A stretch of DNA of 64,000 bases from Psammoneis japonica (Eukaryota). The notes below the pieces were generated by a model. It was not told where the DNA came from, made no database searches, and worked only from the letters and a program-made list of their open reading frames with translations. How positions within the stretch are numbered: the first letter of the stretch is position 1; each line of letters starts with the position of its first letter. The stretch is from NCBI GenBank assembly GCA_008632985.1, contig QPGO01000025.1:248001-312000 (forward strand), given 5' to 3'. The position numbers and the translations under genes were made by a program. This document shows, piece after piece, positions 23,455-61,814 of the stretch.

Positions 23455-26400
23455 CTATCAAACGCTCTAACATCCTACTGTATGTCTCCACTCTCTAGGG
23501 CGGCGCGTGGATGTTCAGCCTACACTAGAATTTATAGATACAAGCATGATCTACTACAAAGCAGGTATTTCAAACTTTAAACTCTCTAGAGCGCCCCGAT
23601 TTGACTCATGCTAGTGCTCTCTAGTCTTGGTCTCCCCAGAGAGGTCCTCACGCTAGCTCCAGAGATTAAAACGAGAGCAGCGATAGCAGAGAGTGGGACA
23701 GAGTATAGGATGTTTCAAATGTTGTGTTTCGTTACGGATCGAGGATGATGTTCATCAAACAATGCGTTTCGTTGCGGATTCCGTAACGTTTTGCGGATGT
23801 GATGTTGCGGAGTCTGTAACGAGAATAAGGTTTCTCAAAAATTTTGTTCCGTAACGAGAACAAGGTTTCTCAAACAATTCATTTTGTTTCGGAATCCGCA
23901 ACGTTGCGGATGTTACGGAGTCCGGAACGAGAAGGTTTCTCGCTCTCTAACATCCCAACTGTGTGTCTCTACTCTCCAGGGCAGCGTGGATGTTTGGTCT
24001 ACACTAACATCTATAGATGCAAGCATGATCTAATACAAAGCAGATGTTTCAAAGTTTAAAGTCTCTAGAGCGCACGATTTGACTTGTGCCAGTGCTCTCT
24101 AGTCTTGGTCGCCCCAGAGAGGTCTTCACGCTGGCTCAAGAGATCAAAACGAGAGCAGCGATGGCAGAGAGTGGGGCAGAGTATGAGATGTCCCAAATGT
24201 TGTGTTTCCTTACGGAATCCGGATTTTACGGAGTCCGTAACGAGGATGATGTTTATCAAACAATGCGTTTCGTTACGGAATCCGTAACATTGCGGATGGG
24301 ATGTTACGGAGTCTGTAACGAGGATGAGGTTTCTCGAACATTTTGTTCCGTAAAACGAGAACGGTTTCTCAAACAATTCATTTTGTTTCGGAATCCGCAA
24401 CGTTGCCGATGTTACGGAGTCCGGGACGAGAAGGTTTCTCGCTCTCTAACTTCCCAACTGTGTGTCTCTACTCTCTGGGGCAGCGTGGATGTTTGGCCTG
24501 CACTAGAATCTATGGATACAAGCATGATCTAATACAAAGCAGACATTTCAAACTTGAAAGTATTTAGAGCGCCCGATTTGACTCATGCCAGTGCTCTCTA
24601 TGCAGTCTCTTGGCCTCCTCAGAGAGGTCCTCACACTAGCTCCAGAGATTAAAACAACAAGAGCAGCGACAGCACAGAGTGGGAAAGAGCATGGGATGTC
24701 TCAAAAAATGTTGTGTTTCGTTGCGAAATCCGGATGTCACGTAGTCCGTAACGAGGAGGATGTTCATCAAACAATGCGTTTCGCCACGGAATCCGCAACG
24801 TTGCGGATGGGATGTTGCGGAGTCTGTAACGAGAATGAGGTTTCTCAAACGTTTGTTCCGTAACGAGAACAAGGTGTCTCAAACAATTCTTTTCGTTTCA
24901 GAATCCGCAACGTTGCAGATGTTACGGAGTCCGCAACGAGAAGGTTTCTCGCTCTCTAACATCCTAACTGCACGTCTCTACTCTCCAGGGCAGCGTGGAT
25001 GTTTGGCCTACACTAAAATCTACAGATGCAAGCATGATCTAATGCAAAGCAGATGTTTCAAACTTTGAAGTCTCTAGAGCGCCCGATTTGACTTGTGCCA
25101 GTGCTCTCTAGTCTTCGTCTCCAAAGAGAGGTCCTCACGCTAGCTCCAGAGATTAAAATGAGAGCAGCGACAGCAGGAGTGGGACAGAGTGTGGGATGTC
25201 TCAAATGTTGTGTTTTGTTACGGAGTCCGGGTGTTGCGGAGTCCGTAACTAGGATGATGTTCATCAAACAATGCGCTTCGTTACGGAATCCGTGACGTTT
25301 TGCGGATGCAATGCTGCGGAGTCTGCAACGAGAACAAGGTTTCTCAAACATTTTGTTCCGTAACGAGAACAAGGTTTCTCAAACAATTCATTTTGTTTCG
25401 GAATCCGCAACGTTGCGGATGTTACGGAGTCCGGGACGAGAAGGTTTCTCGCTCTCTAACTTCCCAACTGTGTGACTCTACTCTCTGGGGGGCAGCGTGG
25501 ATGTTTGGCCTGCACTAGAACCTGTAGATGCAAGCATGATCTAATGCAAAGCAGACCTTTCAAACTTTTGAAAGCACCCAGAGCGCCCGATTTGACTCAT
25601 GCCAGCACTCTCTAGTCTTGGTCTCCCCAGAGAGGTCCTCACGCTGGCTCAATAGATTAAAACGAGAGCAGCGACAGTAGAGAGTGGGAAAGAGCATAGG
25701 ATGTCCCAAATGTTGTGTTTTATTACGGAATCCGGATGTTGTCCGTAATTTGGATGATGTTTGTCAAACAATGCGTTTCGTTACGGAATCCGCAACGTTG
25801 CGGATGGGATGTTGCGGAGTCTGTAACGAGAATGAGGTTTCTCAAACATTTTGTTCCGTAACGAGAACAAGGTTTCTCAAACAATTCATTTCGTTTCGGA
25901 ATCCGCAACGTTGCGGATGTTACGGATTCCGCAACGAGAAGGTTTCTCGCTCTCTAACATGCTAGCTGTGTGTCTCTGCCGGCACTCTCGAGGGCAGCGT
26001 GGATGTTCAGCCTTCATTAGAATCTATGGATGCAAGCATGATCTATTGCAAAGCGGGCATTTCGAACTTGAAACTCTCCAGAGCGCCCGATTTGACTGAT
26101 GCTGGCATTCTCCAGTCTTGGTCTCTCCAGAGAGGTCCTCACGCTAGCCAGAGAGCAAAACTAGAGCAGCAGATGGCAGAGAGTGGGACAGAGGAAAAGA
26201 TGTCTCAAACATTGCGTTTCGTTGCGGAGTCCGGATGTTACAGAGTCTGTGACGTGAATGATGTTCCTCAAACAATGCGTTTCGTTACAGAATCCGTAAC
26301 GTTGTGGATGGGATGTTACGGAGTCCGCAACAAGGATGAGGTTTCTCAAAAACTTCATTTCGTTACGGAATCCACAACGTCACGGAAGTCCGCAACGAGA

Positions 26401-26560
26401 ACAAGGTTTCTCAAGCATTTCATTTTGTTGCGGAACCCACAATGTTGTGGATGTTGCAGAGACCACAACGAGAAGAAGGTTTCTCGAGCATTTTGTTTCA
26501 TTGCGGACGCCTGTCACGTTGTGGACATTGTGGAAATCCGTGACATCCGTGGCGAAACAC
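23455..26560. repeat. Tandem array of about 6 diverged units of about 500 bp with internal palindromic sub-repeats
   Basis: Units start near 23463, 23941, 24440, 24950, 25450, 25948 (ctctaac...gcgtggatgt); recurring cgttacggaatccgtaacg and gagaacaaggtttctc. Confidence 0.95.
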
Positions 26561-26677
26561 TCACTCGCGCAGCAGCTTGCTCCTTTGGTGCCAGGTCTTC
26601 TCTGTCTTTTTCCGTGCCACTTGCTTGCAGACCTCCCAGTTGGGAGTGTCACTGACCACCAGGGCAAGTGATGCAAA

Positions 26678-26826
26678 AGTGAGTGAGTGAGTGAGTGAGT
26701 GAGTGAGTGAGTGAGTGAGTGAGTGAGTGAGTGAGTGAGTGAGTGAGTGAGTGAGTGAGTGAGTGAGTGAGTGAGTGAGTGAGTGAGTGAGTGAGTGAGT
26801 GAGTGAGTGAGTGAGTGAGTGAGTGA
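26678..26826. repeat. (GAGT)n microsatellite, about 37 units
   Basis: Direct reading. Confidence 0.97.
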
Positions 26827-26829
26827 GGT

Positions 26830-29800
26830 TGCAGGAATGCATCAGTTTTTCATGGAACATCTGGGTTGCAACAGGAGTTCATGCATGTGCAGCATGTGGT
26901 GAGTTCACATCAATTTACACAAGAGTTGCAACAGGAGTTTGCAGGCCCTGGGAGCAAGTGCATGTTGTGATCCTTGATGCACTTGCATCACACGTGGGGC
27001 AACAGCATTGGCACACACACTGGCCACTGCTCGTGCACATCTTCATTTCTCAACACATGCACTCAGCAATTGCCCTTGTGATGCACTTTAAAAATGTTTT
27101 GCTCAAATGACTGTCTGTCACACACAACAAGTTGTTGCCCTTTTGCATTGAGTTGAGTGGCACGCACGCATCTTGACAGTTGATGCGACCTCGTTCCATT
27201 CTGATGACATCAAGTTCTGACACCAGTGGAGCCGGCCGCACAGCACTGCCAGTGCTGGCATGAAAAGTGCGCACCATGCCGTGCGATCAAAATGACACAT
27301 GCACAAAGGCCCGCCTGCGTGTGGCCGCATGCTGACCTGCATGTTGCACAGTCTTGCCATGGCCAGTGCCCCCCTCTGAAGGGCTTGTTTAATTTGGCAC
27401 CCACTCCCCATTGCCATGACAGTTTCAGAAGCGCACACAGCAGCTGTTGGCATGTCTCTGCTTGCACGCAAATTTGTTGCAACAAACTCCTGCAAAACAA
27501 TTTCTGTTGTGACGCAACTGTGACGTTGAATTTTTCCACCTCTGCCCAAAAAAATTCAGCACGCAAAACACCAAAGCCATTTTTCTAAACCAAAAAAATC
27601 ACCATGGCCACCACCTCTGAACAAACGCCGCTGCAGTGGATGAATCATCAGCGCCCACTTGCCCCCTTCCAGAGAACACTTCCAAACAACCTGAAGTGTC
27701 TTCTGACAAAAGGGGGCAAGCAGAGCTCACAGATCTGTAGTGGAGACATGGCTCAGATGTGCACTCACTTCTCGCAGAGTTTTTCCATGGCATGTCAAGC
27801 AACAAGCCTTGCTTCTTTGCTGTCAAAGAGCCTTTTGTCAAGATGGAGAGGATCAGTGAAAATGATGATGTCAAAAAAGAGGTGTCAAAGCCAGGTGAGT
27901 CCTGCCTGTTGCTGTGCTTCTTGACAAGTGCACAAGTCCATCACTTCACTTCCGACACGATGTGGCAATGGCAGTGGTGGCAGAGAAGGTGCACATTGGG
28001 CTGCAAGAATTTGTTGATCAACCCTGTCCATCAAATCCTTTTTTCTGCTTTGACAGTGTCCCAGCTGGTGTTTTTTTTGTGAGCCACTTTTCTTCAGCTT
28101 TGGCTGCAGAGTTTTCAATGCGCTGCTTGAGCAGAGTCCAACAGAGTTGTCGCTCCTCATGAATCAAACTCAGACTTTGCCATGGCTTGTTTTCACAATC
28201 ACAACAAAGGGGTTTCTTTGTTAAACCAGACTTGGCAGAGCAACAACAGCAGAGCCAGAGACAAAAGAAGTTGCACAATGCAATGACAAAGCAAAGAACT
28301 TGACACTTTTGACAAAAACAGCCTGCTGATGGGCTCCAATGCCAAACCCATGCTCTTCTCTGTGTTGATGGTGCACCATGGTGCAACACTTGCATTGGAG
28401 GAGATTGACTGCTGCCGCTTCAAGGTCAAGGAGGGCTCCATTGGTGATCTTAATTTGTGCCCAGGTGCAAAGAAGGTGCGCCAAGCACAACTTGGGAATG
28501 GAGTGCATGCCTGGCAAATGAGCTCCAGCAAAGCAAGCCATTGAGAACATTGAGGCCCATTTGGTTTAAAAACACTCCAGGNAAGGACTTTCCTGCACAC
28601 AGGGCATCTGCCCCACTTTGGAGATTGTTGACTGAAAAACAGGTGGGAGCTCTTGGGGGGGGGGGGGGGGTGTGTTTGGTTGAGCTCAGCTGTGTTGATC
28701 TCATCACACAGAAATGTCTGAGCTGGCCTTGTTCTTGGCAATGCCAGGTGAAAGACATTTGGAGGATGTTGTGTGCCGCGCACATGAGCAGACCACCTCA
28801 AAGCACAAAGCATGCCACCAATCTGGTGTTTGTTCCAACTCATCCCTCAATTGATTGACGTCCTTTTGAGGGGATGTCAGCAAAGCAATTCCAAGCAACA
28901 TGCCAGAACCTCCGCCAGGCATGGACTTTAACTTGAAGCTCTGTGTCAACTCTGGTCATGCCAACAACAATGTTGCAGATCGTTTGTGCTCAGAATGTTT
29001 TTTTGCTTGAAGTTGGTGCTGGTCTCATGTTGCTCCAAGTGGTGGAGCACTGTTGAGATGTTTGTTTTTGGCACCAAGTTTGTGGGGCCATGGAGCAATG
29101 CATGGAGTCTTTGAAAGGCTTGCGACACAAGCCATGGATGATGGGAGAATTCAACATGTGGTGAGTTGGCACTTGGGCAGTGAACTTCAGATTTAGAAGT
29201 TGGTGATGACAGCAGATCTCTCAGAGGGAGTTCAAGATGCTGAACTTCCTGAGCTGTGGCACATTGTTGCAATGTGCTTTTTGTCTTTGCAAGCCCAGCT
29301 CATCTGACTGCAGGGTGTAAATTTTCACAACATCCAACAATGTCCAGGCTCAGCACTGATTTTTAAAAGTCAAACATGAAAGATGGCTGCTGGAGATGCT
29401 GAAAAGAGGGAAAGGGAGGGTCCAACCTCCATGAGAACTGACAGAGTTGCTTCAATGTGCCCAATTCTGTGTGCTTGACAACCTCTTTTGCAGCTCTTTT
29501 CCTCTGCCAGTGCTTGACAGTTTTGTTGAACATGACAGGCATTCAACATGTCCACCGTCTTGCTTGGCTTAGCTGGGTCACTCCCTCATCACCAAACACA
29601 CTCCTCCTGGCCATCAAGAGAGTTGACATTTGGCTGTGTCACAAAATGTGCAACATGTTCAGTCCTGAGGGGACTGAAGAATTTAAGATGTGGTGAATTG
29701 GCATCAGGGCAGTGAACTTCAGATTTAGAAGTTGGTGATGACAGCAGATCTCTTGGAGGGAGTTCAAGATGCTGAACTTCCCAAGCTGTGGCACGTTGTC

Positions 29801-30281
29801 ACAATGTGCTTTTTGTCTTTACAAGTCCAGCTCATCTGACTGCAGGGTGTAAATTTTCACGACATCCAATGTCCAGGCTCAATGCTGATTTTTGAAAGTC
29901 AAACATAAAAGATGGCCACTAGAAATGCTGAAAAGAGGGAAAGGGAGGGTCTAACCTCCATGAGAACTGACACAATGCATGATGTTCATCTGCCTAAAAG
30001 TGCATCGGAGAGCCTGTTGCAGAGTTGCTTAAATGTGCCTAATTCTGTGTGCTTGACAACCTCTTTTGTAGCTCTTTTCCTCTGCCAGTGCTTGATAGTT
30101 TCGTTGGACGCGACAGGCATTCAATATGTCCACCGTCTCGCTTGGCTTAGCTAGGTCACTCCCTGTCACTAAACACACTCCTCCCCACAATATCCGGGGC
30201 CAATGGAAGAGGGATCAACGTACGTTGTCATCAAGAGTTGACAGTTTGGCTGTATTATAAAATATACAATATATTCAGTCC
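26830..30281. mobile_element. Degenerate TpA-depleted repeat DNA, class unassigned
   Basis: Same composition as the recognisable TE relics; no intact ORF; no diagnostic motif recognised. Confidence 0.45.
29157..30281. repeat. Tandem duplication of about 530-590 bp (about 29157-29690 and 29690-30281)
   Basis: gggcagtgaacttcagatttagaagttggtgatgacagc at about 29175 and 29707; both copies run to ...ttcagtcc. Confidence 0.95.
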
Positions 30282-30458
30282 GACTTTAGTTTCAGAAACC
30301 TTTCAGCAGGAGATTACTGTACCGATCTTGCGATTTCAAGCCTCGATGAACTCCCGCGGCGATGATTGGATTCCAGAAAGTTAAGCGTCGCCTACCTCCG
30401 TTTAGGCTTGAGATGCACTGGCTTCCAATGAGTTACGCGTTGCCTTTGCCGGCGGACG

Positions 30459-31331
30459 TCATATGATAGTAGGGCTCTCGAATATCTTGATGGCCAAATT
30501 TACAGCTGGCTCGATATCGGTTGGACTCCCCACATGCACGCCGATGCACATACCTGCATTGGGTCCGTCAAGAAGGAATACCACTGCACCTGAACATCCT
30601 CGATAGCTGTTGATATCATGCACAAAGAACTTGTCAAACACATGAGTGATCATGCCAGCGTAGATACTAATTTCGTCAGCTGGACCGTAGACGATCGCCG
30701 GATTCACATCTGTTTGCTTGATACGCGCCGAATCCAATGTGGCGGCTTGTTTGGCGAAGATGGCCATGGCAATATTTGTGCCCATTGCATATTGATATCC
30801 GGGATTTATGGCTTGAAACACGTGAAAGCGTTGTTGTGTGCTCGAGAGAGGCGTCGGAGGCGGAAATGTACCAGCGGCAATGTCCACACCATATTCCCAG
30901 TAAGTGTTCGTGTTGTTGATAAGCAATTCAAATTGCTTAACCTTACGCACATGAGTGCCCATGAGTGGAAACTCTACCGCAAACGTCTCATTGTGGCGTT
31001 TGCCTGAAAACGTGCATGTTGTAACTAACGGCGAAGTGTTTGGGCGTTTAAGAATGTTGTGCAAAGCCGTGACAGCTCGAATATCATCACCGTCGTTACT
31101 CGTACCGAAGTTCACCATGCCCATTTGACCTTCCAATTTATTATTATAGCCGAGGCAGGTAGTCTCCAACTGAGCAGCTCCGCTATAAACTTGTACGAAG
31201 AGTGGCTCGTACTGTTCGTACACTTCTCGCTCTTGGATATCTGTGGAAAAAGGCTGGCCGGTTCGGCGAACTGTTTCCCTTTTCTTGATGTAGGCTTCGG
31301 CGCCGTCGTATTCTGATTCAGAGTCACTCAT
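30459..31331 (-). CDS. Trypsin-like serine peptidase domain protein
   Basis: AVTALHNI (catalytic His), HDINSYRGCSGAVV (catalytic Ser), CIGVHVG; normal Tyr/TpA content. Start assumed at MSDSESEY. Confidence 0.65.
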   Translation of the reverse strand: MSDSESEYDGAEAYIKKRETVRRTGQPFSTDIQEREVYEQYEPLFVQVYSGAAQLETTCLGYNNKLEGQMGMVNFGTSNDGDDIRAVTALHNILKRPNTSPLVTTCTFSGKRHNETFAVEFPLMGTHVRKVKQFELLINNTNTYWEYGVDIAAGTFPPPTPLSSTQQRFHVFQAINPGYQYAMGTNIAMAIFAKQAATLDSARIKQTDVNPAIVYGPADEISIYAGMITHVFDKFFVHDINSYRGCSGAVVFLLDGPNAGMCIGVHVGSPTDIEPAVNLAIKIFESPTII

Positions 31332-31849
31332 GGCGAACAGAGGCAGAGCTAAAGAGAAACATGTGATTTGATTGAAAGTGGCGAGCACACTTTAAATGCA
31401 ATGCGGGTCAGAAGAGTGTATTATTGTTGCTTTGTTCCTCGCTCGCTATGCTACCCGCTATGGATACCGGTAGACCTACCCTGCGCCACAACCCACACGA
31501 CACGACGCACTCGTCTTGAGGGATGCGCGAAAGATTTTGACCATGAACAAAAGGCACCAAAATGAATGGGGGGCGTCTGCTGGCCAAGTGCGCACGGCAG
31601 AGCTAGCTACTAGCCGCAGAGAGTCTTTGGAAGCGAGAGCTTCGAAAGAAGTCTGCTCGTCGATGCGACTGGAGAATTTGGATCGAAAATTTGAAAATTC
31701 CCGGACAGAGCCCTCTTTCGAAAGTTGAACATCGCCAGTCGCATCAGATGCCCGTTTGCGGCCCATGCATGGGCCGCAAATTTTTTCAAATCTTCAGCGA
31801 CAGAGGCGATCGATGAATGGACCCCACAGCCGAACTCTCCACACCCGTT

Positions 31850-34800
31850 TGTCCTGAACTGTCTCACTGGAATGTGCGACATGGGTGACAAGCTCTTTGT
31901 TGCTTTTGGTGGAGGGGACTCTGAATTGAAAAGGCATTTGGTTTGTTGCACACAGTCGTGTGTGCTTTCAGCTGCGCGCACAACATGTGATGCGGTTTTG
32001 CTCTCAAGCCACTCGGCTCACAAGATCGATGACAACAGCAGCCCGGTCACATCTGACACCTGTCTTGTGGTGTGTTTTCAACTCAGCTTGCAAACAGATC
32101 CTGTGGTGTGTGAGATCTGTCACAAAATCAGAAGGGAGGAACGGCACCACTGTGGCAGGCAAACCATTTGTGGTGAAGGAACAGGGTCAGACCAGACAGC
32201 ATCTGTGCTCATTGGGGCAAGGCTCTCAGCCAGTTGCTTGAGGAGAGCAATGTCTGCTGCCCAAATCTGGCCAATGGAAAGGTGGTCAACAATCCATGGC
32301 AGCATTTGAAAGATGCATGGCACTGCACAGCAAGAAACTCTTGAAGTTGCCTGTGCATCCATGAGTGAGGTCGGAACAGGGCAATCCATGGATGCACACT
32401 GAGCAAGGGTGGCAGCATGGCTGTCAATGAGCACTCAAGCTGGGAAAGCAATGAGGTCTGCAAGGCATCCAGGCAGCATGATGGGTGGCACTGCCAGCCA
32501 AGACAACAACAAGCCAGGGCCGTCAAAGGACCAGGCTGCTGAAGATGCTTTGCAGCAGTCAACCACAGGGTTGAAAAGGTTGCTGGGCACCAAAACATGG
32601 CCAGGGCCCAAGGTGGGCACAGCTGACCAACCCGCTGGGACAAAGACAGGCTCCTCTTGTGCAGAGACACTGTGAGCCCGGCAGCGGCCGTGAGGACAAC
32701 TGCTGAGAAAGAGTGCATGTTGCCACAGTGTGGGGGCAGCACGCAAGCAAGTGCACGCCTGCATGAGCACCACGCCACTGGAAAGCATGGTGGCATGTTT
32801 TGAGCAGCATGCCTCAGGGGCACGAAGGCAAACACAGTTGTTGGCAAGGAGCCAGTTGGGTTGGGAGGGCTGCTGCACAGCAGTGGTCAGATTGTTGGTG
32901 GTGGCCGAGAGGCCCAAGGCAATGATGGTGGGCATCATTGTCACAATGCAAATCCTGATGAAGACCACCTCACAGTTTTGAGAGCTGAGATGGCTGACCA
33001 CACTGGGACTCACTGGGATGGGAGACTGCCAGGATGGCCAAAACCATCCACTCCAGAACAGAGAAGTTGCCAACAAGGAGGTGAGCAGACCATTTCCAAA
33101 TTTGGCCAAGATGGCCATTGAAGCAGATGCTGGTTGGCATTGCTTCCTTCCTCTGTTGCATTGCTTGCAGGTGCCCTCATTGAGTGCCTCTTTGCGACCA
33201 CCTTCTCTGGTGCTGACCTGCTCTGCTCTGGTCAATTTGGCGTTTGGCATCCATGGTGGACTTTCTTGTCAACCCTGTCCACACCAACATTGAATGCTGT
33301 CCTCTTCCCATTCTCAACCCCTTCAGCAACTGTGCTTTGCTTCACCTGCACCAACAGCCACAAGACTCTGCTGTCTCCAAGAACCACATCAGACACACGC
33401 GTCGCCTGTGCTGCCATCACTGCACCATGACCACCATCATCATGACTGCCCCCCTCATCCCCTTGCAGGTCTCCACCACTTTCAACAGAATGTCTTGCTC
33501 AAACCCACAGCCCTGCACCCTGACCACCTCTTGAATTCCCAGCCAATGTTGGCACACAACTCGTGGTGCCCATGGCAGCATTTGAAAGATGCGCGGCAAT
33601 GCACAGCAAGAAACTCTTGAAGTTGCCTGTGCATCCATGAGTGAGGTCAGAACAGGGCAATCCATGGATGCACACTGATCATCTTGCTTCTTTTCTTCTT
33701 GATCAGAATCTGTTGAAAAATCCAACTTGCGAGTGACAGAGCTTTTGCCTTTGTCGTTCGTTTTCGATGGATTTGCAAGCATGCAAGCCAGCACCTGTGC
33801 AAATCCAAAACAGGAGGAAGAGTCAGCACCATGGATCAGCACCAACATGAGACAACAGAGACTAAAAGAAGCATGTGCACCTCAACTGTTTTCCCCAGAC
33901 ACTCATGGAATCTGCAAGAACACCTCCTGACACATGGGGGTTTGAATGCTTGGACAGATCCCAGTCAGGAAAAGCAGATTGAGTTGAGCAGGCATGGGCC
34001 TCTTGCACACTTTTCACAAGTCATCCCACAAAGGGACTGCAAAAGATGCACTCCAAGTCTTGTTGTTTGTCCCAGTCATAAAATGGTGCCACAGCATTGC
34101 CTTGTCTTTGATGCTGGCTGTCACTGTTGGTTTCTGACTGCTCTTGGACCAAGACTGCCCAAGCCATTTCCCACTCTTGTTGGACTCCCTCTTGATGTGT
34201 GCAGCTGCTGCTTTTCCTGCTTCAACATCCATTCAACTGCTTCTTTTTGGCAAGGATGCAAGGTGGGCACAAGACCAGGAATGTCTCAGAATGGTTTTTG
34301 GTCCTCATCTTGTGCCAAGAGTTGAACATTGTCCATCACATTGTACAAATCATTTTGGCTGCAACAGACTCATCAGAAGATGATGCTGACTGGTGTTTGG
34401 TCACATCAACAACCACAGATTGTGGAAAGAGCCACAACAATCAACAGCATTTTGCATCTTGTGAACTTGTGTGCAGCAGAATTGACACGCGCGAGTGCAA
34501 CAGGCTTGTTGTTGACTTGTGCGGTCGAAAAGTGATGGGCAAAAAATTGAACATTTCAGCTGTTTTTGCTGTGATCAATCAATGTCAAAGCACAGTGAGG
34601 CACACACATGTGAAATGAATTGTGCAACATTGATGTGTGTCAGTGTTGTGGTGAGTTTGTGGCTGTTGGTGGAGTGTGTTGCATTCATGGTTGCCGTTGT
34701 TGTTGCGTTTCGACAAGTCGTGGAAAATTTGAAATCCAAAACATTCGTGCATGCAGGCATGTTGTCAACCACAGGACCTTGACATCATGCATTCCTTTGC

Positions 34801-34900
34801 ATGCAAAGAATTTACATTTTTCACTTGTTGTGATTTCATGTGTGAATGAGACATTGACATTGATTGCCCAATGTGACACGTGTCAATGTTCACATGCAAA
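31850..34900. mobile_element. Degenerate TpA-depleted repeat DNA with a ~110-bp dispersed duplicate (about 32294-32402 and 33570-33678)
   Basis: Composition plus duplicated ccatggcagcatttgaaagatg...ccatggatgcacactga; class not recognisable. Confidence 0.45.
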
Positions 34901-34939
34901 CATCAGGCTTGCCGCCAGAAAAAAAGGATGTTCAGCAAA

Positions 34940-37900
34940 AAAAAACAGGTGGGGGCAAACTCACCCATGAGCGCTTCTTGCACATTCAGCGCATCATCAT
35001 TCTTCTTGGCCTTGGCAGCACAGACACAAGGGTCTTGAATGTCCAATTGTCCACTGTCACAGCAGGTCTGGATCTCAGCAAGATGAGCAAGCTGGGAAAT
35101 GTGTCCTCCAGCATCCAACAGCTTGACTGAGGCCAAGTGGACTTCATTGGCAAAACGAGTTGCAGCTTGCTTGCCTTTGTTTGATCTTTGTGAGTGACGC
35201 ACGTTCTGCTCAGTTGTGGGCAGGACTGGGACATCTGGAGCCGGGACTGAGATGTCCAATGACTCCGTGCCTGATGGAGGTGGCGGATGCACGGGAGGCA
35301 TTGAATGACCAACCTCCGACTTGCTCAGTGATGGATTGGAGTTTTGCGGTTGTTGTGAAGGTGGTTCCTGGGGTGGCACCAATGGCAAGTCATCAGAATT
35401 TGATGGTGTGGATGCAGCAGGACGTGCAAATGGCGGTGGTTTGACGACCGGAGTGACAGGTTTTGAAGATTTTGTTGCAGTGGGCTGTTGCTGACGCACA
35501 TTCCTGATGAGATGCTCATGTTCTTTGTCACCATTTCTGCTTGAGTTCTGCAGGAGTGAGCCAATCGTCTTGAAGGAACAATTGTTTGTCACTCGAATGG
35601 TGTCTGGATGACATTTCTCCAAAAGAGCTCTTCCAGGTGATCAGGTGGCTTGCTCTCCCTCTTGATCAATGCAACCATGGCAAAGAGATTGCCAAACACC
35701 ACATGATGCTGAGGAGCCATGGACTCCATGTTCAAGTTCAGGGCCAGTGGAACTTTGCCAGCGTGAACCAAACTGAGGCCAAGAAAAACACCGCGCCTTG
35801 ATCTTGGTTGGTTGCCATCATGGCAACTTCTGACCTTGCTGCAACTTGGGATCCAGGACGTAGACAGGACAGCCCCAAACATGCAAATCAAGCAAACAAT
35901 GGTGTGGGATGGTGGATCCGGCAAAGATGTTGGCAGAACAAAGACCATTTAATGCCGGAGCATTGTTGCAGATGTGGGCGGCGCAGTTGACTGCCACAGG
36001 CCACAATGAGCTGTTGACACCACCGCGCCAATGGATGGAGGCATGGAGGATCATGGCTTGTGCCACATTGGATGCAGAACAAATGGACCTCTTGATGATG
36101 CCATTCTGGTGATGGGTGTTCATTCCCCAACAGTGGATGCATTGCTGAGAGTTGTGGACATGTGCAACAAACTTGTTGGCCTTGAAAGCACCATTGTTGG
36201 CAAGGTGCTCCTGCACAATGATGCCATGACCAAGAGCCATCTGCTCACACAACCTTGTTTTGCCCACATCATCTCAACTGCAGAGAAACCAACTTGATGC
36301 TTGATGTGCATGAACCCAGAAGCATGATTGATGAAGACACAGCCACCAACGTGCTGCTGAGAGGAGGGTTTGCCACAGGAATTGCAGGTGCAACCCTTGA
36401 GATGCAACTTGAAGTGACCAATGCTCATGGACTGACCTGGATGCAAGTGACCAGCTTTGAGTGCCCCATCACATTCAGGGACAGTGGTCGTCTCAGTGGG
36501 ACAGCGGTGAGCCTTGGCACACTTGCAGGTGTCGCATTTGGGGATGTCACACTTGGAGGTGGACGTGAACTTAAGAGCGGTGAAAGGAGGCTGCCGGTGG
36601 AGAAGAGCTTTTGGGTGCATGGAAAGTTAACAGAGCATGGATGTCCACCAGTGACTTCTGTCTGGAAGACAGATTGAGGTTGTCAGGGTCAGCGACAGCA
36701 CTCAAATTGACTTGGGGAGTGCACACAGCACCATGAGATGTGGGGCCAACTGGCAAGTTTGTGCGTTTGTTGCATGCAATGTGGATCTTGGGTGTGCCAT
36801 AAAAACACAACTTGAAAACCTCGCTGTTGCCCCAAAAGTGTTCTCCAATGCTCGCAGGTTGAAAGAGACATTGTGGAGACAGCAAATGCACATCAGCCCA
36901 AGGCACGTAACAGCAACTAGTCTGGATGCTAACGTTGCCACCATCCGCCACCTGAAAGCACCAGAAGACAGCACCAATGCCTTCAACAGGCAACCCGTTG
37001 GCCATTCCACCAAGCTTGAGAGGCTTGGGCAGTGCTTGAATGTCCCCACTGAAGTCGTCTTTGTCCAGAGACAGCAAGCAAGGCACCAGCAACAAAGATG
37101 GCCTGAAGAGATGGCTGCCCAATGGACATGAGGACGGCATGGTCCCAAGCCAGTTGCAGCAGTTGGGTGGCTCCTGTGGGAGCGTAGATGACAGCTGCAG
37201 TGGGTTGTGCAACAGGGGAAGGTGAGGCACTGGCACCTGCTGAGGCTTGAGCAACAACTTCCATGACAGCAGGTTGGAACTTGGTGCAGTTGACCATGTG
37301 TTGGTCTTGACACAACTTGGAGACACCAAAGATGTCGGGACTGGAGAAGTCCGACTCACAAAAGGTGTCAGCATCAAAGAAGGACTCATGACAGATGGGA
37401 AACTCTTCACAGATGTCAAAGCAGTCATTGAGCTCACTGGCCTCAATCAACTCGTGAAGCTCAAAAGGCAAGGTTGCCATGTCGTGCGTGGCTCCCTCTG
37501 GTTCCAGCACCTCATGCTTGATCTTCAAATGATGATGCTGCAGCAGGGTGCCAGGTGTCAAGACGACTTGATCATCAAGAGCCTGAACAACCTCATGGGT
37601 CTGAGAGCATGGGTGCTGCAAGGGAATGCTCAGATGGGGTGGGGCTCATCCAAGACAGATGGAGAGCCACAGTGCAATTGCACATGAGATGATGCCCCAC
37701 CAACATGGGCAGCTGAATGGAGCAGGCTCTTGCATTTGAGATTTGTTTGGAGGAATGCAATGCACATGGCCGGACCAAGAGCACTGCAGTCCTTGTCCTT
37801 GGCAACCAGCGCTGGGTCACTCAAGCAACATTTGTGCTCCATGGCCGTCACATTGTCTAACTTTGCATGGATTGCTCGATTGAAGGCCTCACCAGAGGCA

Positions 37901-38830
37901 TTTGAACACTTCCGAAGGAGATCGGACCCAAGCTGGACCGGAAGAGCATGTCCAGTCTGCAGGATCTTGAGAAGATGGAGTGCCTTGGCAGAAAACTCGG
38001 CAACATCTTCGCCTGGGCAGGAGTCGCAAGTCAAGCATCAAAGCTTTGAAATCCTCAGAAGCTTGAGAAACATCATGAACCACAGATGCGCCACAAGTCT
38101 TGAGTGCCATCATGAAAACAACTTGGCCAGGAAAGTGTTTGAACAGGTCCTGGTGACCGAACTGTGTTTCAATTTTCTCGCGGAATTTGTGGGAGATGCA
38201 AGACTCAACAACAAGGCAAGTGAGATTGATGTCATCATGCTCACGTTAATCACACACTGCATCATTGCCAGCAATGGTTGACCGGCACATGTGCTTGGTG
38301 ATGACTTCCTCAATGGCGAAGCTGTGAAGGTGAATGAACAGATTCACGACCTTGTTGTTGAGCTTCATGATGAAGAAATTTTCCATGCCATGCTCATGAA
38401 CTGTCATTTTGATCAATTGAATGAAATGTTCCTTGTCCAGTTCATTTGCCTTTCCATCAGCAAGTTCCAGATTGCTGTCAAACTTGATCATGTTGGTTCC
38501 GTCATGAGCATCTCGGAGATTGTGCTCGACATGCAGTGGGATCTTCTCATTGCAAGATTGGTTGGCAAAGCAACAGGTGCACTTGAGTTTTGGCTTGCAG
38601 CTGTCATCCAGCGGGGATCTGCCCATGTGGCATCCACATTCAAGATGAACTCCACCGCAAAGTGGTGGTGGCTGAGATTGTGAACCTGAGGTTGCCATCA
38701 CCTGATTCTTTTGAGCTGCAGGAGGAGGCAGAGGCAGATTCGTGCCCGTCCGTGGAGTCTTGGGTGGAGGGGTGTTGGCATTTGTCATGGTGGAGACAAC
38801 TTGATGCAGCTGTGGCACCAAATGCACAAA
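34940..38830 (-). mobile_element. Degenerate Ty1/Copia (CoDi-type) gag-protease-integrase, truncated at the start of RT
   Basis: LKLGGMANGLPVEGIG, CDTCKCAKAHR, HQNGIIKRSI, LWPVAVNCAAH, LHVWGCPVYVLD, RGVFLGLS, DALNVQEALMG. Confidence 0.85.
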
Positions 38831-39649
38831 GTCAACTCAATGATGGATCAATGGAACGTTCTTGAGTCGAAAAACTTGCAGAGCCATGCCAAGCAACCAT
38901 GACAGTCAATGGCGCAATGGGAGCAACCCGCGATGTCACTTGAGGAGCTGTTCTTGAGGAACAGGGGACTCAGAGAGTCAAAGGAACTTGATCTGGGTTT
39001 GCTTTGAAATGCACAGACTTTGTCGTTTCAAATTTGGAACTCATTGGAGATTGCAGGTTGATTCCTTGAGGCAAAATGGCTGCCAGCTTGTCAGTGAACA
39101 ACGGCAGCTAGCAGCAATGCAGGGAGTGTCTGATGTTGACTGGAGGCGTCGCTCAGACGTCAAACAACATGACCATTTGGCAGAAACGAGTCAACGTTGA
39201 TGGCAGATGGAAGCTTCAATGACCCAATCGACAGTGCTTTCCCGGTGGCAGAACAAATGCAACATGACATTGGGACTCGCAACCACTGAAGACACAACAA
39301 AGCAGTTGGTGTTAGCAAGAGCAAGAGCTCAAGGTTGCGACAGAGCAGCAGAAGTTGTTGTTGTCAAAGTTCTCCATGGAGAAATCATGAGCAGAAACTG
39401 AAGAGTGATCTCAACGATCAGATTTGTGAGTGGAGAAGAGATTTGAATCTCAATGATGCAAGCGACACATGGAAATGTCTGAAATGACATTGACAAATGA
39501 CTTTGACATTTTGACTGCCAAGATCTACATGCGCAAGATTGCGCATGCAGAGCTCAGCATGAAATTTCATGCATGTAAAATTCATTGGTGTCTGAGCATT
39601 TGCTTCATCCCGAATGCTGGGGAGTGGGGGGAAACCACCTCTCCAAGAG

Positions 39650-40777
39650 AGTGGCGTGCACACATGAAGATTTCACGTGGCGGCACGGGGGGTGGGACAG
39701 ATGCGGAGCAAGGGTGGAACTGCCTGAGTCACACAGCTTTCCATCCACTCCTTCCTTTCTTTGATCTCTCATGCCAAAGCTTTGATGCCTGCTGGCATCA
39801 TCACCCCGACTCTGCTTGGGACTCTTTTGTTCAAGAAGAAGGCTTTGCTCAAGGTTGCCCCCTTGGTCCTGTCTTTGCAAGCCTTGTCCTCTTGCTTGTC
39901 CTTTGTCCAATTAACCAAGAACTCCATGAACACATCCCTGGCTGCTCCCCTGCCTCCGTTGGCTCCTGCGTTGATGACGCTCATGCCTTTCTTCTTTTTC
40001 ACTCCACTCTCCCATGGTTCCTTGAACATTTCTCCACTCTTGGTGCTCCCTGAAGCATTGCTCTCAACCTCCATAAAACTGAAGTTCTCACCTCCATCAC
40101 TGGCATTGGCTCCATTCCCACCCTTCTTCCCTCCTGGGCCAACCCTCTCTGTGCCACTCTCTCCTGCCTCAATCCTTCAAATCATGACCTTCCTGCAGCC
40201 CCGAGATCACCTCCAGTGTTCACTTCCTTGGCCAGCCCCTTGGCTTGCAAGACTTTGCCAATTCTTTCCTCTCTGCCACCTCTTGCACTCTCTCCCACAA
40301 AGTCGGCATGCTCCTCACCCGCCTCCATGACAAGCAAACTTGGGGTCAATTCTTCAAACACTGCTTCACTCCTTCCTCTGCCCACCTTCTTGGCGCTGAT
40401 TGTTGTCACAACTTTGATCCCAACAACCCTCCCAACCCCTTCCTTTGGACCTCCTCCTTTCAACACTCCCTTCTCACTGCCATTCATTGATTTCTCCCCT
40501 GTGCTGCCTCCCGTGCTGCTCCTCTTCCCAATCATTCTCTAGCCATTGCCTTCCTTCCTGTGTTGCTTGGCAGCTTTGGCCTCTGGGATCCAACTGCTGC
40601 CACTGTTCCATCATTCATGGTGTCTCAGTGTCTGTTCTCTGCTCATTCCGCTTTGCATCTCATGGTGTCCAACTGCCATCAGGTGTCACTGTTGCCCTTC
40701 TTTTGGCTTTCTTTGTCCTCTTGGCACAACCCCCGCTCGACTCTGTGGCACTGCATGATTTTCCATCATTGTGTTCC
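39650..40777 (+). mobile_element. CRE-like non-LTR retrotransposon, RT part (5' of the Copia insertion)
   Basis: QEEGFAQGCPLGPVFASLVL and GSCVDDAH (mutated YVDD); pyrimidine-rich sense strand. Confidence 0.75.
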
Positions 40778-40965
40778 TGTCAGAATGCTGATGGCAAGAG
40801 TGACAAGCTAAAGAGCTCCCTGCAAACTAGCAACAGTGGACAACACATGTGCCAGTGAGAAAGAGTGAGAGAAGATCTCAGAGAGATCATCTCGTCCATC
40901 TAAAAAGAGTCTGACAGTCATCCACGCACAGTCTGACCATGCATCCTGCACAGGGTGAGCTGACA
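40778..40965 (-). repeat. 3' LTR, with polypurine tract AGGGGAGGC (40966-40974, minus strand)
   Basis: Direct repeat of 45944-46135; TG...CA ends. Confidence 0.92.
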
Positions 40966-45931: not shown

Positions 45932-45943
45932 AAGGCCATAACC
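45932..45943 (-). promoter_or_regulatory. Primer binding site GGTTATGGCC (copia-type, half initiator tRNA-Met)
   Basis: Immediately inside the 5' LTR; resembles the Drosophila copia PBS GGTTATGGGCCC. Confidence 0.75.
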
Positions 45944-46135
45944 TGTCAGAACACCGATGGCAAGAGTGACAAGCTAAAGAGCTCCCTGCAAACCAGCAAC
46001 AGTGGACAACACATGTGCCAGTGAGAAAGAGTGAGAGAAGATCTCAGAGAGATCATCCATCTCGTCCATCTAAAAAGAGTCTGACTGTCATCCGCACACA
46101 GTCTGACCATGCATCCTGCACAGGGCGAGCTGACA
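45944..46135 (-). repeat. 5' LTR
   Basis: Direct repeat of 40778-40965. Confidence 0.92.
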
Positions 46136-46140
46136 GTTCC

Positions 46141-61185: not shown

Positions 61186-61814
61186 CTGGCTCGATAGTGC
61201 GAGTGCGGTACGGCCGTCATACACGTAAACATTCGGGCACGACACTGTGCTGTATGAGGCTACGACTAGCACAATGTGCAATATAGAACATTCAGAAACA
61301 TATATTTTGTATGTGAATATATATTTTATGTCTGGATGATCTGTATGTAAAATGACTGCACATGACTCCTGGTGTAGAATTTGTACCAGTCTACGTACTT
61401 AAAAGCTCTACGAACTGCAGTATAATAAAAACGTCCGACTTTAAGTAAAATAAAATGTCGGTCCGCCCAAATCGACCGAAACGCCGGCCATGTCTTTTAA
61501 CAAAACATTTGAACTTGAATATTTTATATGAAGCAGTCGGAGTTGAAAAAGTAATATCAAAATTTTTGTAGTGATTTGAATAGGAAACATTGTCAAAATC
61601 TTTTAATTATTTTTGAAAGTATCGATTTTTGAGAAGAAAATTGTATGGGTTACATCTGTAAAGATGCCCTAATTATTTGCCATAAACCGTTATCGTTAAA
61701 TAGCCATGTACAAAAATTGCAATACCGGTGTTCGGGACGTTTTTTACAGTTCACATTGTGCTAGTCGTCACTCCATAACATCTTCCGGAATCTTGCGGAA
61801 TGCGAAAATAAGGT

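What the first reader, a model, noticed from the sequence alone, without database searches (positions are those of the whole stretch)
29632..30281. Duplicate pair showing before and after states: 7 of 7 differences in 34 bp are at TpA
The copy at 30248-30281 reads ggctgTATTATAaaaTATAcaaTATAttcagtcc; the copy at 29632-29665 reads ggctgTGTCACAaaaTGTGcaaCATGttcagtcc. All seven TpA are converted (4 to TG, 3 to CA) with no other change. The same holds along the duplicate (tttAcaag/tttGcaag, gtcTaacc/gtcCaacc, ttgTagct/ttgCagct, gctAggtc/gctGggtc, caaTatg/caaCatg). The TA-rich copy also keeps CpGs (ttcgttggacgcgac versus tttgttgaacatgac), so it is the ancestral-like copy, and it is the one abutting the unmutated gene island.
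Basis: seen in the sequence. Interest (0 to 1): 0.88.

Follow-up and report, generated by a model that had tools for sequence, protein, structure and literature searches.

The report
TpA-erasing hypermutation in diatom repeats
A diatom chromosome carries transposon-rich blocks in which almost every TA step has been rewritten to TG or CA, a mirror image of fungal RIP so far reported only once, in an unrelated alga, and the flagged duplicate catches the change at the edge of one block.

Summary
The 34-bp pair differs at 7 positions. All 7 are TpA in copy B, and read 4 TG and 3 CA in copy A. Over the whole duplicate, 18 of copy B's 22 aligned TpA are TG/CA in copy A, and 6 of its 7 CpG (Fisher p=2e-10).

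The pair sits at the edge of one of four blocks (25.9 kb of the 64 kb) that hold 78 TpA where about 1,071 are expected. The TG+CA excess (2,031) matches the lost TpA plus lost CpG (1,982).

Polarity was settled independently:
- In a dead copia-like retrotransposon, 0 of 22 conserved Tyr codons survive; 15 are now Cys or His.
- Single sites read TG in one copy and CA in another.
- Related environmental copies show 87 TA-to-TG/CA changes against 5 reverse.

The host is a diatom. The same TpA-only A:T>G:C hypermutation was reported in 2026 for integrated viruses of the chlorarachniophyte Bigelowiella natans. My library searches found no diatom report.

Most likely a deaminase aimed at silent chromatin converts adenine in 5'-TA-3' DNA, with separate CpG decay on top. 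The enzyme is inferred, not shown.

The parts
29632..29665 (.). 34-bp end of copy A, the converted state: no TpA; TG at 4 and CA at 3 of the positions that are TpA in copy B
30248..30281 (.). 34-bp end of copy B, the unconverted state: 7 TpA
   Evidence: the run X1 contig reads one further TA here (30252, window TG)
29139..29688 (.). Tandem duplicate copy A, inside the converted block: 4 TpA and 1 CpG in the aligned part
29666..30281 (.). Tandem duplicate copy B, straddling the block edge: TpA density rises from about 2% (29700-30000) to normal (30000-30281), and it keeps 7 aligned CpG
1..5650 (.). Converted block 1 (runs off the window): TpA O/E 0.00-0.21, CpG O/E 0.13-0.56 per kb
26365..29900 (.). 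Converted block 2: last TpA before it at 26364, then one TpA in the next 550 bp. The right edge is a gradient through copy B
31612..47373 (.). Converted block 3 (15.8 kb): TpA O/E 0.00-0.11 per kb, CpG O/E 0.17-0.43
61810..64000 (.). Converted block 4 (runs off the window)
40776..46136 (-). Dead copia-like LTR retrotransposon. LTRs at 40776-40966 and 45942-46136. Integrase, RT and RNase H homology lies at 44065-41133 in several frames. Every conserved Tyr is lost
23465..26486 (.). Six-copy ~500-bp tandem array beside block 2: graded partial TpA loss towards the block, CpG intact
30459..31388 (-). Spared single-gene island: a conserved gene of unknown function with normal TpA and CpG, flanked by blocks 2 and 3

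Best explanation
The window is nuclear DNA of a diatom. Gene-poor, transposon-derived blocks have undergone a DNA-level hypermutation confined to those regions. It changes the A:T pairs of TpA steps to G:C. Each TpA becomes TpG if the adenine of the top strand was changed, and CpA if the adenine of the bottom strand was changed. The process ran almost to completion: 78 TpA are left in 25.9 kb.

A second, separable process lies on top of it. This is the ordinary decay of (presumably methylated) CpG to TpG/CpA.

The flagged duplicate lies across the right edge of block 2. Copy A is inside the targeted domain and is fully converted. The distal part of copy B is outside it and keeps its TpA and CpG.

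Shown here:
- the direction (TA is ancestral);
- the restriction to TpA;
- near-equal use of both strands;
- a flanking-base hierarchy (RTAY > RTAR/YTAY > YTAR, so the changed A is preferably followed by a pyrimidine, and TTAA is the most refractory);
- edges only a few hundred bp wide that spare a 1.4-kb gene island;
- independence from CpG loss;
- recurrence in related elements from other public sequences.

Inferred, not shown:
- The chemistry is enzymatic deamination of adenine to inosine in 5'-TA-3' DNA by a TadA/ADAT2-type deaminase. This is what was proposed for Bigelowiella natans.
- Targeting is by silent chromatin rather than by pairwise homology.
- The biological role is defence against mobile DNA.
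For: Composition.
- Blocks, 25,853 bp: TA 78, CG 450, TG+CA 5,700.
- Gene islands, 31,503 bp: TA 1,305, CG 1,753, TG+CA 4,471.
- At island frequencies the blocks should hold about 1,071 TA, 1,439 CG and 3,669 TG+CA. The TG+CA excess (2,031) equals the TA deficit (993) plus the CG deficit (989) to within 3%.
- ApT O/E is unchanged.

Polarity.
- Conserved Tyr: 0 of 22 kept, 8 Cys and 7 His. Conserved Arg: 10 of 35 kept, 9 Cys and 4 His. Leu is kept at 37/46, Pro at 31/37 and His at 14/15.
- 5 TG<->CA double differences in the duplicate, and 0 in three control repeat pairs from the gene islands.
- 7 three-state {TA,TG,CA} columns in the tandem array.

Both strands are used. The Tyr codons split 8 Cys to 7 His. 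The TG:CA ratio is 0.81-1.25 in all blocks.

The change happened in place and is bounded by domain.
- TpA falls along the array towards block 2: 27, 22, 17, 17, 17, 12, while CpG stays at 28-31.
- There is a gradient inside copy B.
- The gene at 30459-31388 is spared between two blocks (61 TA in 1,201 bp). It is a real conserved gene: 16 homologues at 37-83% identity.

Context.
- Residual TpA in the blocks: TTAA 19 and CTAA/TTAG 20 of 78, but ATAC 0, ATAT 0 and ATAG 1.
- Polarised pairs, mostly from metagenome loci, give RTAY 61/81 converted, RTAR/YTAY 115/179 and YTAR 31/73. The changed A is followed by T 73, C 64, G 43 or A 27 times.

Occurrence elsewhere.
- 15 of the 150 listed homologues of the element's polyprotein have 1.5% Tyr or less. 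At their conserved-Tyr columns 93 of 126 are Cys/His.
- 9 of 80 related metagenome loci have TpA O/E below 0.40, with CpG O/E 0.63-0.80.

The sequence is not an assembly quirk. Contigs of run X1, at word depth about 50, reproduce the TpA-poor block with 0-9 differences per contig.

Precedent. In B. natans mutation-accumulation lines, 230 of 231 mutations in two integrated viral regions were A>G or T>C, and all of these fell on TpA (bioRxiv 10.64898/2026.01.13.699255; Results and Discussion read).
Against: - No outgroup of the duplicated unit itself could be found. Its polarity rests on the TG<->CA double sites and on analogy with the rest of the window.
- No genome is held. Genome-wide extent, the copy number of the blocks' families and the presence of a candidate deaminase could not be checked.
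- The two LTRs of the copia-like element are about 94% identical and share most of their TG/CA. They show only 1 double difference. This is not expected if a TA-rich element was converted after insertion. Either it inserted already converted, or the LTRs were homogenised.
- One island control pair (59271-59777 / 60381-60886) also shows 15 TA<->TG/CA among 84 events. Such differences are therefore not exclusive to the blocks.
- Adenine has not been distinguished from thymine as the base attacked. No modified base, enzyme or chromatin mark has been observed.
- The metagenome loci were found with a query built from Tyr-poor homologues, so their share (9 of 80) is not a frequency. Their hosts are unknown.
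Confidence: 0.8

Rival explanations
1. Same directional TpA>TpG/CpA hypermutation, but by way of thymine. A TET/JBP-type dioxygenase oxidises T in TpA to 5-hydroxymethyl- or 5-formyluracil. This mispairs with G and gives T>C, read as A>G on the other strand.
For: The outcome in sequence is identical, so none of my tests separates the two routes. In thymine terms, the context found is a preference for RTA. 5hmU made by a dedicated enzyme marks and silences transposable elements in dinoflagellates, another SAR lineage (PMC11572971; search listing and abstract start only). Early work reported 5hmU preferentially in TA and TC contexts in Crypthecodinium (passage in PMC11071213).
Against: The same paper found no sequence preference for 5hmU in Breviolum. 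Heavy 5hmU loads in dinoflagellates are not known to me to erase TpA (recalled, not tested). The preference for U before the target A is native to TadA/ADAT and ADAR enzymes (the ADAR part is stated in the preprint's Discussion; the TadA part is recalled).
Confidence: 0.15
2. Classical RIP-like C>T mutation (CpA>TpA, TpG>TpA) acted on copy B. On this view TG/CA is ancestral and the TA-rich copy is the mutated one.
For: RIP produces exactly TA<->CA/TG differences between duplicated copies, and the pair is a tandem duplicate.
Against: - Copy B also keeps 6 CpG that copy A has lost. RIP does not make CpG.
- 5 sites are TG in one copy and CA in the other.
- The blocks hold about 7% of the expected TpA, whereas RIP enriches TpA.
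- Conserved Tyr codons are all lost to TGY/CAY.
- The organism is a diatom, not a fungus.
Confidence: 0.02
3. RNA-level A-to-I hyper-editing of retrotransposon transcripts (ADAR- or TAD-like), fixed by reverse transcription and reinsertion.
For: U is the favoured base before the edited A in ADAR-type editing (preprint Discussion). One block holds an LTR retrotransposon whose LTRs look as if they were converted before insertion.
Against: Editing of the sense RNA would give only TA>TG on the coding strand (Tyr>Cys). Conserved Tyr gives 8 Cys and 7 His, so both strands were hit. Non-coding tandem repeats and a graded block edge are converted in place. The TpA-free zones run past the element into flanking DNA.
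Confidence: 0.03
4. Sequencing or base-calling artefact: dense base modification at TpA and CpG in silent DNA is misread as TG/CA by the platform used for the assembly.
For: A palindromic modified site misread on each strand would give a mix of TG and CA, as seen. The platform used for the assembly is unknown to me.
Against: - Word-exact contigs of run X1 at depth about 50 carry the same TpA-poor sequence.
- The same signature is present in proteins and contigs from many other public data sets.
- The retrotransposon also has frame shifts between homology segments, as a long-dead element should.
- In B. natans the mutations were called from Illumina reads.
Confidence: 0.02
5. No mutation process at all: the blocks are foreign or compositionally odd DNA that avoids TpA under selection, for example nuclease or restriction avoidance, or gBGC.
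For: TpA is mildly under-represented in the gene islands too (O/E 0.3-0.97 per kb).
Against: - The before and after states exist within one duplicate and along one array.
- The loss destroys conserved Tyr in a dead element, where selection on the protein is absent.
- ApT, the other A/T step, is not depleted, so this is not a general AT>GC drive such as gBGC.
Confidence: 0.01

Closest known systems
TpA-targeted hypermutation of integrated NCLDV and virophage DNA in Bigelowiella natans (Mettrop et al., bioRxiv 10.64898/2026.01.13.699255; outline, Results and Discussion read)
   Same: A:T>G:C transitions that fall only on TpA and give TpG or CpA depending on the strand. They are confined to regions of invading DNA beside normal genes. 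The long-term footprint is low TpA with high CpA+TpG. TpA-poor coding sequences there are enriched for reverse transcriptase and DDE transposase domains.
   Different: - Host: a chlorarachniophyte (Rhizaria) there, a diatom (Stramenopiles) here.
- There the active targets still hold much TpA (Rho 0.45 for the NCLDV region). Here the blocks are saturated (O/E about 0.03-0.1 over 15 kb).
- The preprint text has no occurrence of 'CpG', 'flanking', 'trinucleotide' or 'context', so CpG loss and flanking-base preference are not treated there. Both are seen here.
- De novo events were observed there and only inferred here. I could not see its supplements, so its site list could not be compared with the RTAY/YTAR hierarchy.
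Repeat-induced point mutation (RIP) of Neurospora and other fungi
   Same: A genome-defence-like process that riddles mobile or repeated DNA with transitions in one dinucleotide context, leaving dead elements in discrete blocks beside intact genes.
   Different: - The chemistry and direction are opposite: RIP is C>T at CpA and makes TpA, whereas here TpA is destroyed.
- RIP makes AT-rich isochores. Here GC content is unchanged (0.44-0.55 per kb in the blocks and 0.42-0.54 in the islands), because the GC gained at TpA is offset by the GC lost at CpG.
- RIP needs sequence duplication. Here a young 94%-identical inverted pair in a gene island is untouched, and conversion went on to saturation in DNA that is now about single-copy by word depth.
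CpG decay of methylated transposable elements (TEs are the major targets of CG methylation in the diatom Phaeodactylum tricornutum; PMC9998398, passages read)
   Same: CpG O/E of 0.13-0.43 per kb inside the blocks, with a gain of TpG/CpA. Arg CGN codons of the dead element have become TGY/CAY.
   Different: This explains only half of the TG/CA gain (989 of about 2,031). It cannot touch TpA. TpA loss occurs without CpG loss in the tandem array and in metagenome loci such as L076.
Deaminase hypermutation of retroelements in animals (APOBEC3 on cDNA, ADAR on dsRNA), and TadA/ADAT2 tRNA adenosine deaminases with their engineered DNA base-editor derivatives
   Same: Mutational inactivation of mobile or viral nucleic acid by base deamination. 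The target A is preceded by U/T. TadA's native UAC target and the YAC preference of early adenine base editors are recalled, not tested here.
   Different: Those systems act on RNA or on single-stranded replication intermediates and leave strand-asymmetric footprints. Here chromosomal DNA is hit on both strands within bounded domains. No natural chromatin-directed DNA adenine deaminase is known to me.

Membership tests
TpA>TpG/CpA hypermutation of invading DNA (Bigelowiella natans type) | Changes are A:T>G:C transitions at TpA, not at other A/T steps | tested here: met
   18 of 22 TpA are converted in the duplicate, against 30 of 479 other bases changed. ApT O/E is unchanged in the blocks. Tyr becomes Cys/His at 15 of 22 columns.
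TpA>TpG/CpA hypermutation of invading DNA (Bigelowiella natans type) | Both products (TpG and CpA) occur, meaning either strand can be hit | tested here: met
   10 CA and 8 TG in the duplicate. 8 Cys and 7 His. TG:CA ratio 0.81-1.25 in the blocks.
TpA>TpG/CpA hypermutation of invading DNA (Bigelowiella natans type) | Confined to regions of foreign or mobile DNA, with neighbouring host genes spared | tested here: met
   There are four blocks with edges only a few hundred bp wide. A copia-like element lies in block 3. The conserved gene at 30459-31388 is spared. The origin of blocks 1, 2 and 4 could not be annotated.
TpA>TpG/CpA hypermutation of invading DNA (Bigelowiella natans type) | De novo occurrence at a rate orders of magnitude above background in living lines | not testable with these tools
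   Only contigs of one sample were available. One TG/TA difference at 30252 between the window and the X1 contig is the only hint.
Repeat-induced point mutation (RIP) | C>T at CpA (or another CpN), which enriches TpA in the mutated copies | tested here: not met
   The blocks hold 78 TpA where about 1,071 are expected. Polarity is TA>TG/CA.
Repeat-induced point mutation (RIP) | Triggered by sequence duplication, so both copies are hit over the duplicated length | tested here: inconclusive
   The distal third of copy B is barely converted although it is duplicated. An island inverted pair of 94% identity is not converted. The tandem array is partly converted. Copy numbers in the whole genome are unknown.
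Methylation-driven CpG decay | CpG depletion with a matching TpG/CpA gain in silenced DNA | tested here: met
   450 CpG against about 1,439 expected in the blocks. Arg becomes Cys/His/Trp/Gln/stop at 16 of 35 conserved columns. Methylation itself was not observable.
ADAR/TAD-type RNA hyper-editing fixed by retrotransposition | A>G on the transcribed (sense) strand only | tested here: not met
   7 of the 15 single-step Tyr changes are T>C on the coding strand (His). Non-coding repeats and flanks are converted in place.

The most novel reading that the evidence does not exclude
Diatoms carry a chromatin-guided DNA adenine deaminase system, a natural TpA-specific editor of double-stranded chromosomal DNA. 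It permanently scrambles transposons and other silenced DNA, and it is the mirror image of fungal RIP. Its presence in both a diatom and a chlorarachniophyte would make it an old defence of the SAR supergroup or wider. It would also be a hidden shaper of the composition and decay of repeats in major marine phytoplankton. Combined with CpG decay it is GC-neutral, which would explain why it has escaped isochore-based scans.
Probability: 0.45. Interest if true: 0.92.

Novelty: new member of a known kind. Interest (0 to 1): 0.8.

Why it matters
A TpA-directed A:T>G:C hypermutation of invading DNA has so far been described once, in a 2026 preprint on a chlorarachniophyte, and its enzyme is unknown. 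Finding the saturated end state of the same signature in a diatom would show that the process is not a curiosity of one alga. The same signature also appears in related retrotransposons of other public data sets.

This window adds features that an enzyme hunt can use:
- strand symmetry;
- a TAY/RTAY preference, with TTAA refractory;
- edges a few hundred bp wide;
- separability from CpG methylation decay.

There are practical consequences too.
- Such blocks defeat homology-based transposon annotation. Pfam found almost nothing in 26 kb here.
- They bias dinucleotide-based and codon-based inferences.
- If the agent is a deaminase that works on chromosomal DNA, it would be of interest as a natural adenine editor.

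Tried and rejected
- The whole genome of the window is not held. No genome-wide scan and no search for deaminase genes was possible.
- Earlier findings of this scan held nothing on this genome or sequence. The word search returned only unrelated phage and bacterial items.
- A Pfam scan of 138 stop-to-stop ORFs of 90 aa or more from the four blocks gave only four weak hits below the curated cut-offs. Only one of them, SH3_retrovirus at 42893-43279(-), proved meaningful. Blocks 1, 2 and 4 remain unannotated.
- Sequencing runs: 3 rows, all one sample and one study, probably the source of the assembly. No RNA holder was listed.
The part beside it was laid instead.
  - The contigs confirm the sequence. 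They mix alleles or paralogues, and copy B is laid on copy A at several places.
  - Of the 40 listed differences, 21 are TA/CG<->TG/CA. I do not use these as polarity evidence.
- The search for related loci with a 16-sequence alignment had no conserved stretch. It was repeated with 6 sequences.
- The half-density crossing method for the block edges is noisy. Read together with the position lists, it gives three outcomes:
  - the TpA-poor zone reaches 0.2-0.9 kb beyond the CpG-poor zone at 4 of 6 edges;
  - the two coincide at one edge (about 47.5 kb);
  - the order is reversed at the duplicate's own edge.
- Literature: five searches found no report of TpA-directed hypermutation in diatoms. The B. 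natans preprint has no occurrence of 'diatom' or 'stramenopile'. Subscription journals and bioRxiv supplements are outside what I could see.
- Rejected readings: RIP, RNA editing, artefact and selection (see the rival explanations).
Full report
**The observation**

They differ at 7 positions. Each of these lies in one of the 7 TpA of the 30248-30281 copy. The 29632-29665 copy has TG at 4 of them and CA at 3, and nothing else differs.

The strings are the ends of a tandem duplicate, A = 29139-29688 and B = 29666-30281. Over 523 ungapped columns there are 49 mismatches.
- B's 22 aligned TpA read 10 CA, 8 TG, 3 TA and 1 TC in A.
- A's 4 TpA read 3 TA and 1 TG in B.
- B's 7 aligned CpG read 3 CA, 3 TG and 1 CG in A.
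- Bases inside B's TpA are changed in 19 of 44 cases, against 30 of 479 for all other bases (Fisher p = 2.3e-10).

Grouped as events, the 41 events are 19 TA<->TG/CA, 5 adjacent doubles with TG in one copy and CA in the other, 6 CG<->TG/CA, 8 other transitions and 3 transversions.

Three repeat pairs from the gene islands served as controls. They have 0 such doubles and are dominated by transversions (7 of 16, 47 of 84 and 8 of 11 events). One of them does carry 15 TA<->TG/CA differences among its 84 events.

**The setting**

The window is eukaryotic. Long ORFs encode a mitochondrial carrier, Not3, a PTEN-like phosphatase and an F-box protein. The named relatives of the Not3 ORF are diatoms (Cylindrotheca, Conticribra) at 63-65% identity. 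The best hits, at up to 82%, are unnamed.

Per-kb dinucleotide statistics split the window sharply. In four blocks (about 1-5650, 26365-29900, 31612-47373 and 61810-64000) TpA O/E is about 0.0-0.2 per kb, CpG O/E mostly 0.1-0.4 and TpG/CpA O/E mostly 1.5-2.2. Between them, gene islands have TpA O/E mostly 0.45-0.9 and CpG O/E about 1.

| Counts | Length | TA | CG | TG+CA |
|---|---|---|---|---|
| Blocks | 25,853 bp | 78 | 450 | 5,700 |
| Gene islands | 31,503 bp | 1,305 | 1,753 | 4,471 |
| Blocks, expected at island frequencies | | ~1,071 | ~1,439 | ~3,669 |

The TG+CA surplus (2,031) equals the missing TA (993) plus the missing CG (989) to within 3%. ApT is not depleted, and GC content does not differ between blocks and islands.

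The flagged duplicate lies on the right edge of block 2. TpA per 250 bp runs 2, 3, 6, 10, 18 from 29250 to 30250. Copy A is therefore inside the block and the far end of copy B is outside it.

**Direction of change**

There is no third copy in the window and no genome is held. Four other polarisations agree.

1. The TG-versus-CA double differences need an ancestor that was TA or CG. C>T mutation of the RIP type cannot make them.
2. Block 3 holds a copia-like LTR retrotransposon on the minus strand.
   - It has 191-195-bp LTRs at 40776-40966 and 45942-46136.
   - A 329-aa ORF from it found 298 relatives among 1.84 billion representatives, including polyproteins of 1,280 to about 2,460 aa.
   - Twenty long, Tyr-normal homologues align to 44065-41133 in several frames.
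   - I took the 368 columns where at least 6 homologues align and at least 60% agree. The 22 Tyr columns keep Tyr 0 times. They read TGY (Cys) 8 times, CAY (His) 7 times, and Trp 2, Ser, Gln, Val, Phe and Lys once each.
   - Arg is kept at 10 of 35 columns, with 9 Cys, 4 His, 1 Trp, 1 Gln and 1 stop. This is the CpG signature.
   - Leu (37/46), Gly (31/42), Pro (31/37), Asp (15/18), His (14/15) and Cys (9/10) are largely kept.
3. A six-copy, ~500-bp tandem array at 23465-26486 abuts block 2.
   - Its TpA count falls towards the block (27, 22, 17, 17, 17, 12), while CpG stays at 28-31 and TG+CA rises from 54 to 84.
   - Seven columns hold TA, TG and CA in different copies, against 0-2 for each of the other 15 parent dinucleotides.
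4. Related elements from elsewhere give the same direction (see "Beyond this genome").

**Properties of the process**

- Both strands are hit about equally: 10 CA to 8 TG in the duplicate, 8 Cys to 7 His, and TG:CA of 0.81-1.25 in every block. This excludes editing of a sense RNA followed by reverse transcription.
- The process acted in place and stops at edges a few hundred bp wide. A single conserved gene at 30459-31388(-) sits between blocks 2 and 3 with normal composition, 61 TA and 77 CG in 1,201 bp. It has 16 homologues at 37-83% identity, among them MMETSP transcripts. Synonymous TpA would not have been protected by selection, so the gene was not exposed.
- TpA loss is separable from CpG loss.
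  - The array and the stretch 31612-32044 have lost TpA but not CpG.
  - At 4 of 6 block edges the TpA-poor zone reaches 0.2-0.9 kb further out than the CpG-poor zone. At one edge they coincide. At the duplicate's own edge CpG recovers about 270 bp later than TpA.
- There is a flanking-base hierarchy.
  - The 78 surviving TpA are mostly TTAA (19) and CTAA/TTAG (20). ATAC/GTAT (0), ATAT (0) and ATAG/CTAT (1) are essentially gone, although they make up 35% of island TpA.
  - In five polarised pairs (four from metagenome loci plus the duplicate), RTAY sites are converted in 61 of 81 cases, RTAR/YTAY in 115 of 179 and YTAR in 31 of 73.
  - Read as a change of A, the base after it is T 73, C 64, G 43 or A 27 times. 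At asymmetric sites 76 of 115 changes hit the A that is followed by a pyrimidine.
- The block DNA is now about single-copy by word depth: 56 in the block against 50 in the gene. Conversion nevertheless went to near-saturation. A 94%-identical inverted pair in a gene island keeps 18 and 17 TpA. I read this as targeting by domain (silent chromatin) rather than by pairwise homology. That is an inference.

**Beyond this genome**

- Of the 150 listed homologues of the element's polyprotein, 15 have 1.5% Tyr or less, with raised Cys and His. At their conserved-Tyr columns 93 of 126 are Cys or His and 6 are Tyr, while Arg is often kept.
- A scan of metagenome contigs with an alignment of six such proteins returned 80 loci. 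Nine have TpA O/E below 0.40: L076 0.11, L040 0.15, L039 0.23, L061 0.28, and L041, L070, L022, L045 and L057 at 0.35-0.37. L041 and L045 are the same sequence. Their CpG O/E is 0.63-0.80.
- L076 has 1-4 TpA but mostly 19-33 CpG per 500 bp. In L032 the element part has 6-11 TpA per 500 bp and most of the flank has 16-36.
- Pairwise counts of TA>TG/CA against the reverse: L022 vs L006 87 to 5; L076 vs L032 45 to 4, with 38 TG<->CA doubles; L032 vs L050 89 to 14.
- The query was biased towards converted copies and the hosts are unknown. This shows recurrence, not frequency.

**Is the sequence real?**

Contigs of run X1, from the same sample as the probable source, reproduce 27103-31900 at word depth about 50. 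They carry 0-9 differences per contig and do not restore TpA in bulk. Of the 40 listed differences, 21 are TA/CG<->TG/CA, and some come from copy B being laid on copy A. One difference, at 30252, is TG in the window and TA in the contig, just beside the 34-bp string. Together with the independent public data sets above, a base-calling artefact is unlikely.

**Comparison with what is known**

A 2026 preprint on Bigelowiella natans (10.64898/2026.01.13.699255; outline, Results and Discussion read) reports mutation-accumulation lines. In these, 231 of 302 nuclear mutations fall in an integrated NCLDV and a virophage region. Of the 231, 230 are A>G or T>C, and all of those lie on TpA. The rate is about 1,000-fold above background. 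[quoted passage not shown] The authors propose an ADAT2-like DNA adenine deaminase.

The window shows the same kind of process in a different supergroup branch. Here it is at saturation, on an LTR retrotransposon and on tandem repeats, and it is superimposed on CpG decay. The preprint text has no occurrence of 'diatom', 'stramenopile', 'CpG', 'flanking', 'trinucleotide' or 'context'.

Five library searches found no report of this in diatoms.

CpG methylation of transposable elements in the diatom Phaeodactylum is documented (PMC9998398, passages). It accounts for the CpG half of the signal.

RIP is the functional analogue but fails its defining test, because TpA is destroyed rather than made.

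**Mechanism**

I think the most likely mechanism is enzymatic A>I deamination in 5'-TA-3' (best TAY) of chromosomal DNA in silenced domains, on either strand, fixed as G at replication. Ordinary 5mC deamination acts independently at CpG. The U/T before the target A fits TadA/ADAT and ADAR enzymes; the ADAR part is in the preprint's Discussion and the TadA UAC target is recalled.

A thymine route cannot be told apart from this by sequence. It would run by TET/JBP-type oxidation to 5hmU/5fU, which then mispairs with G. 5hmU is linked to transposon silencing in dinoflagellates (PMC11572971, listing and abstract start only). Old reports gave it a TA/TC preference (PMC11071213, passage).

**What remains unexplained**

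- The two LTRs are about 94% alike and share most of their TG/CA, with only 1 double difference. Conversion of a TA-rich element after insertion should have made about half of the converted sites differ.
- The element may have inserted already converted, or the LTRs may have been homogenised.
- The content of blocks 1, 2 and 4 is unknown.

**Verdict**

The finding is real and correctly interpreted. It is a new, saturated instance in diatoms of a hypermutation type described only once before. Its enzyme and its targeting remain to be found.

Noticed in passing
window 23465-26486: Six-copy ~500-bp tandem array directly after the PTEN-like gene. It is rich in CGTAACG/CGGA-type short internal repeats, has intact CpG, and loses TpA in steps towards block 2. 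It may be a useful natural dosimeter of the process.
   Followed up: partly
window 26678-26827: Perfect (AGTG)37.5 microsatellite at the left edge of block 2. It is 100% pure, so it expanded after any TpA conversion, or was never (AGTA)n.
   Followed up: no
window 40776-40966 and 45942-46136: The LTRs of the dead copia-like element are about 94% identical and share their TG/CA pattern as well as two refractory CTAA sites. This suggests insertion of an already converted element, or LTR homogenisation.
   Followed up: partly
window 5979-8438 (+): An 819-aa ORF with a 2OG-Fe(II) oxygenase domain (PF13640, E 1.7e-6) begins about 300 bp from the edge of block 1. It is of the prolyl-hydroxylase type, not the TET/JBP family, so it is probably unrelated to the hypermutation.
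   Followed up: no
window 59271-59777 and 60381-60886: Inverted repeat pair (78% identity overall, with a 94%-identical core of 278 bp) inside a gene island, with normal TpA content. It may be the ends of a small mobile element that has not been converted.
   Followed up: partly
window 31612-32044: A stretch of about 430 bp that is TpA-free but still CpG-rich (about 30 CpG), between the spared gene and block 3. It looks like an unmethylated flank reached by the TpA process.
   Followed up: partly
window 28582: A single N in the assembly inside block 2. The X1 contig lacks one letter there.
   Followed up: no
L032 1-3500 versus 3500-11500; L076 whole: Metagenome contigs of unknown host in which a related retrotransposon is TpA-poor and its flank is normal (L032), or the whole 4.1-kb contig has 1-4 TpA per 500 bp with mostly normal CpG (L076).
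   Followed up: partly
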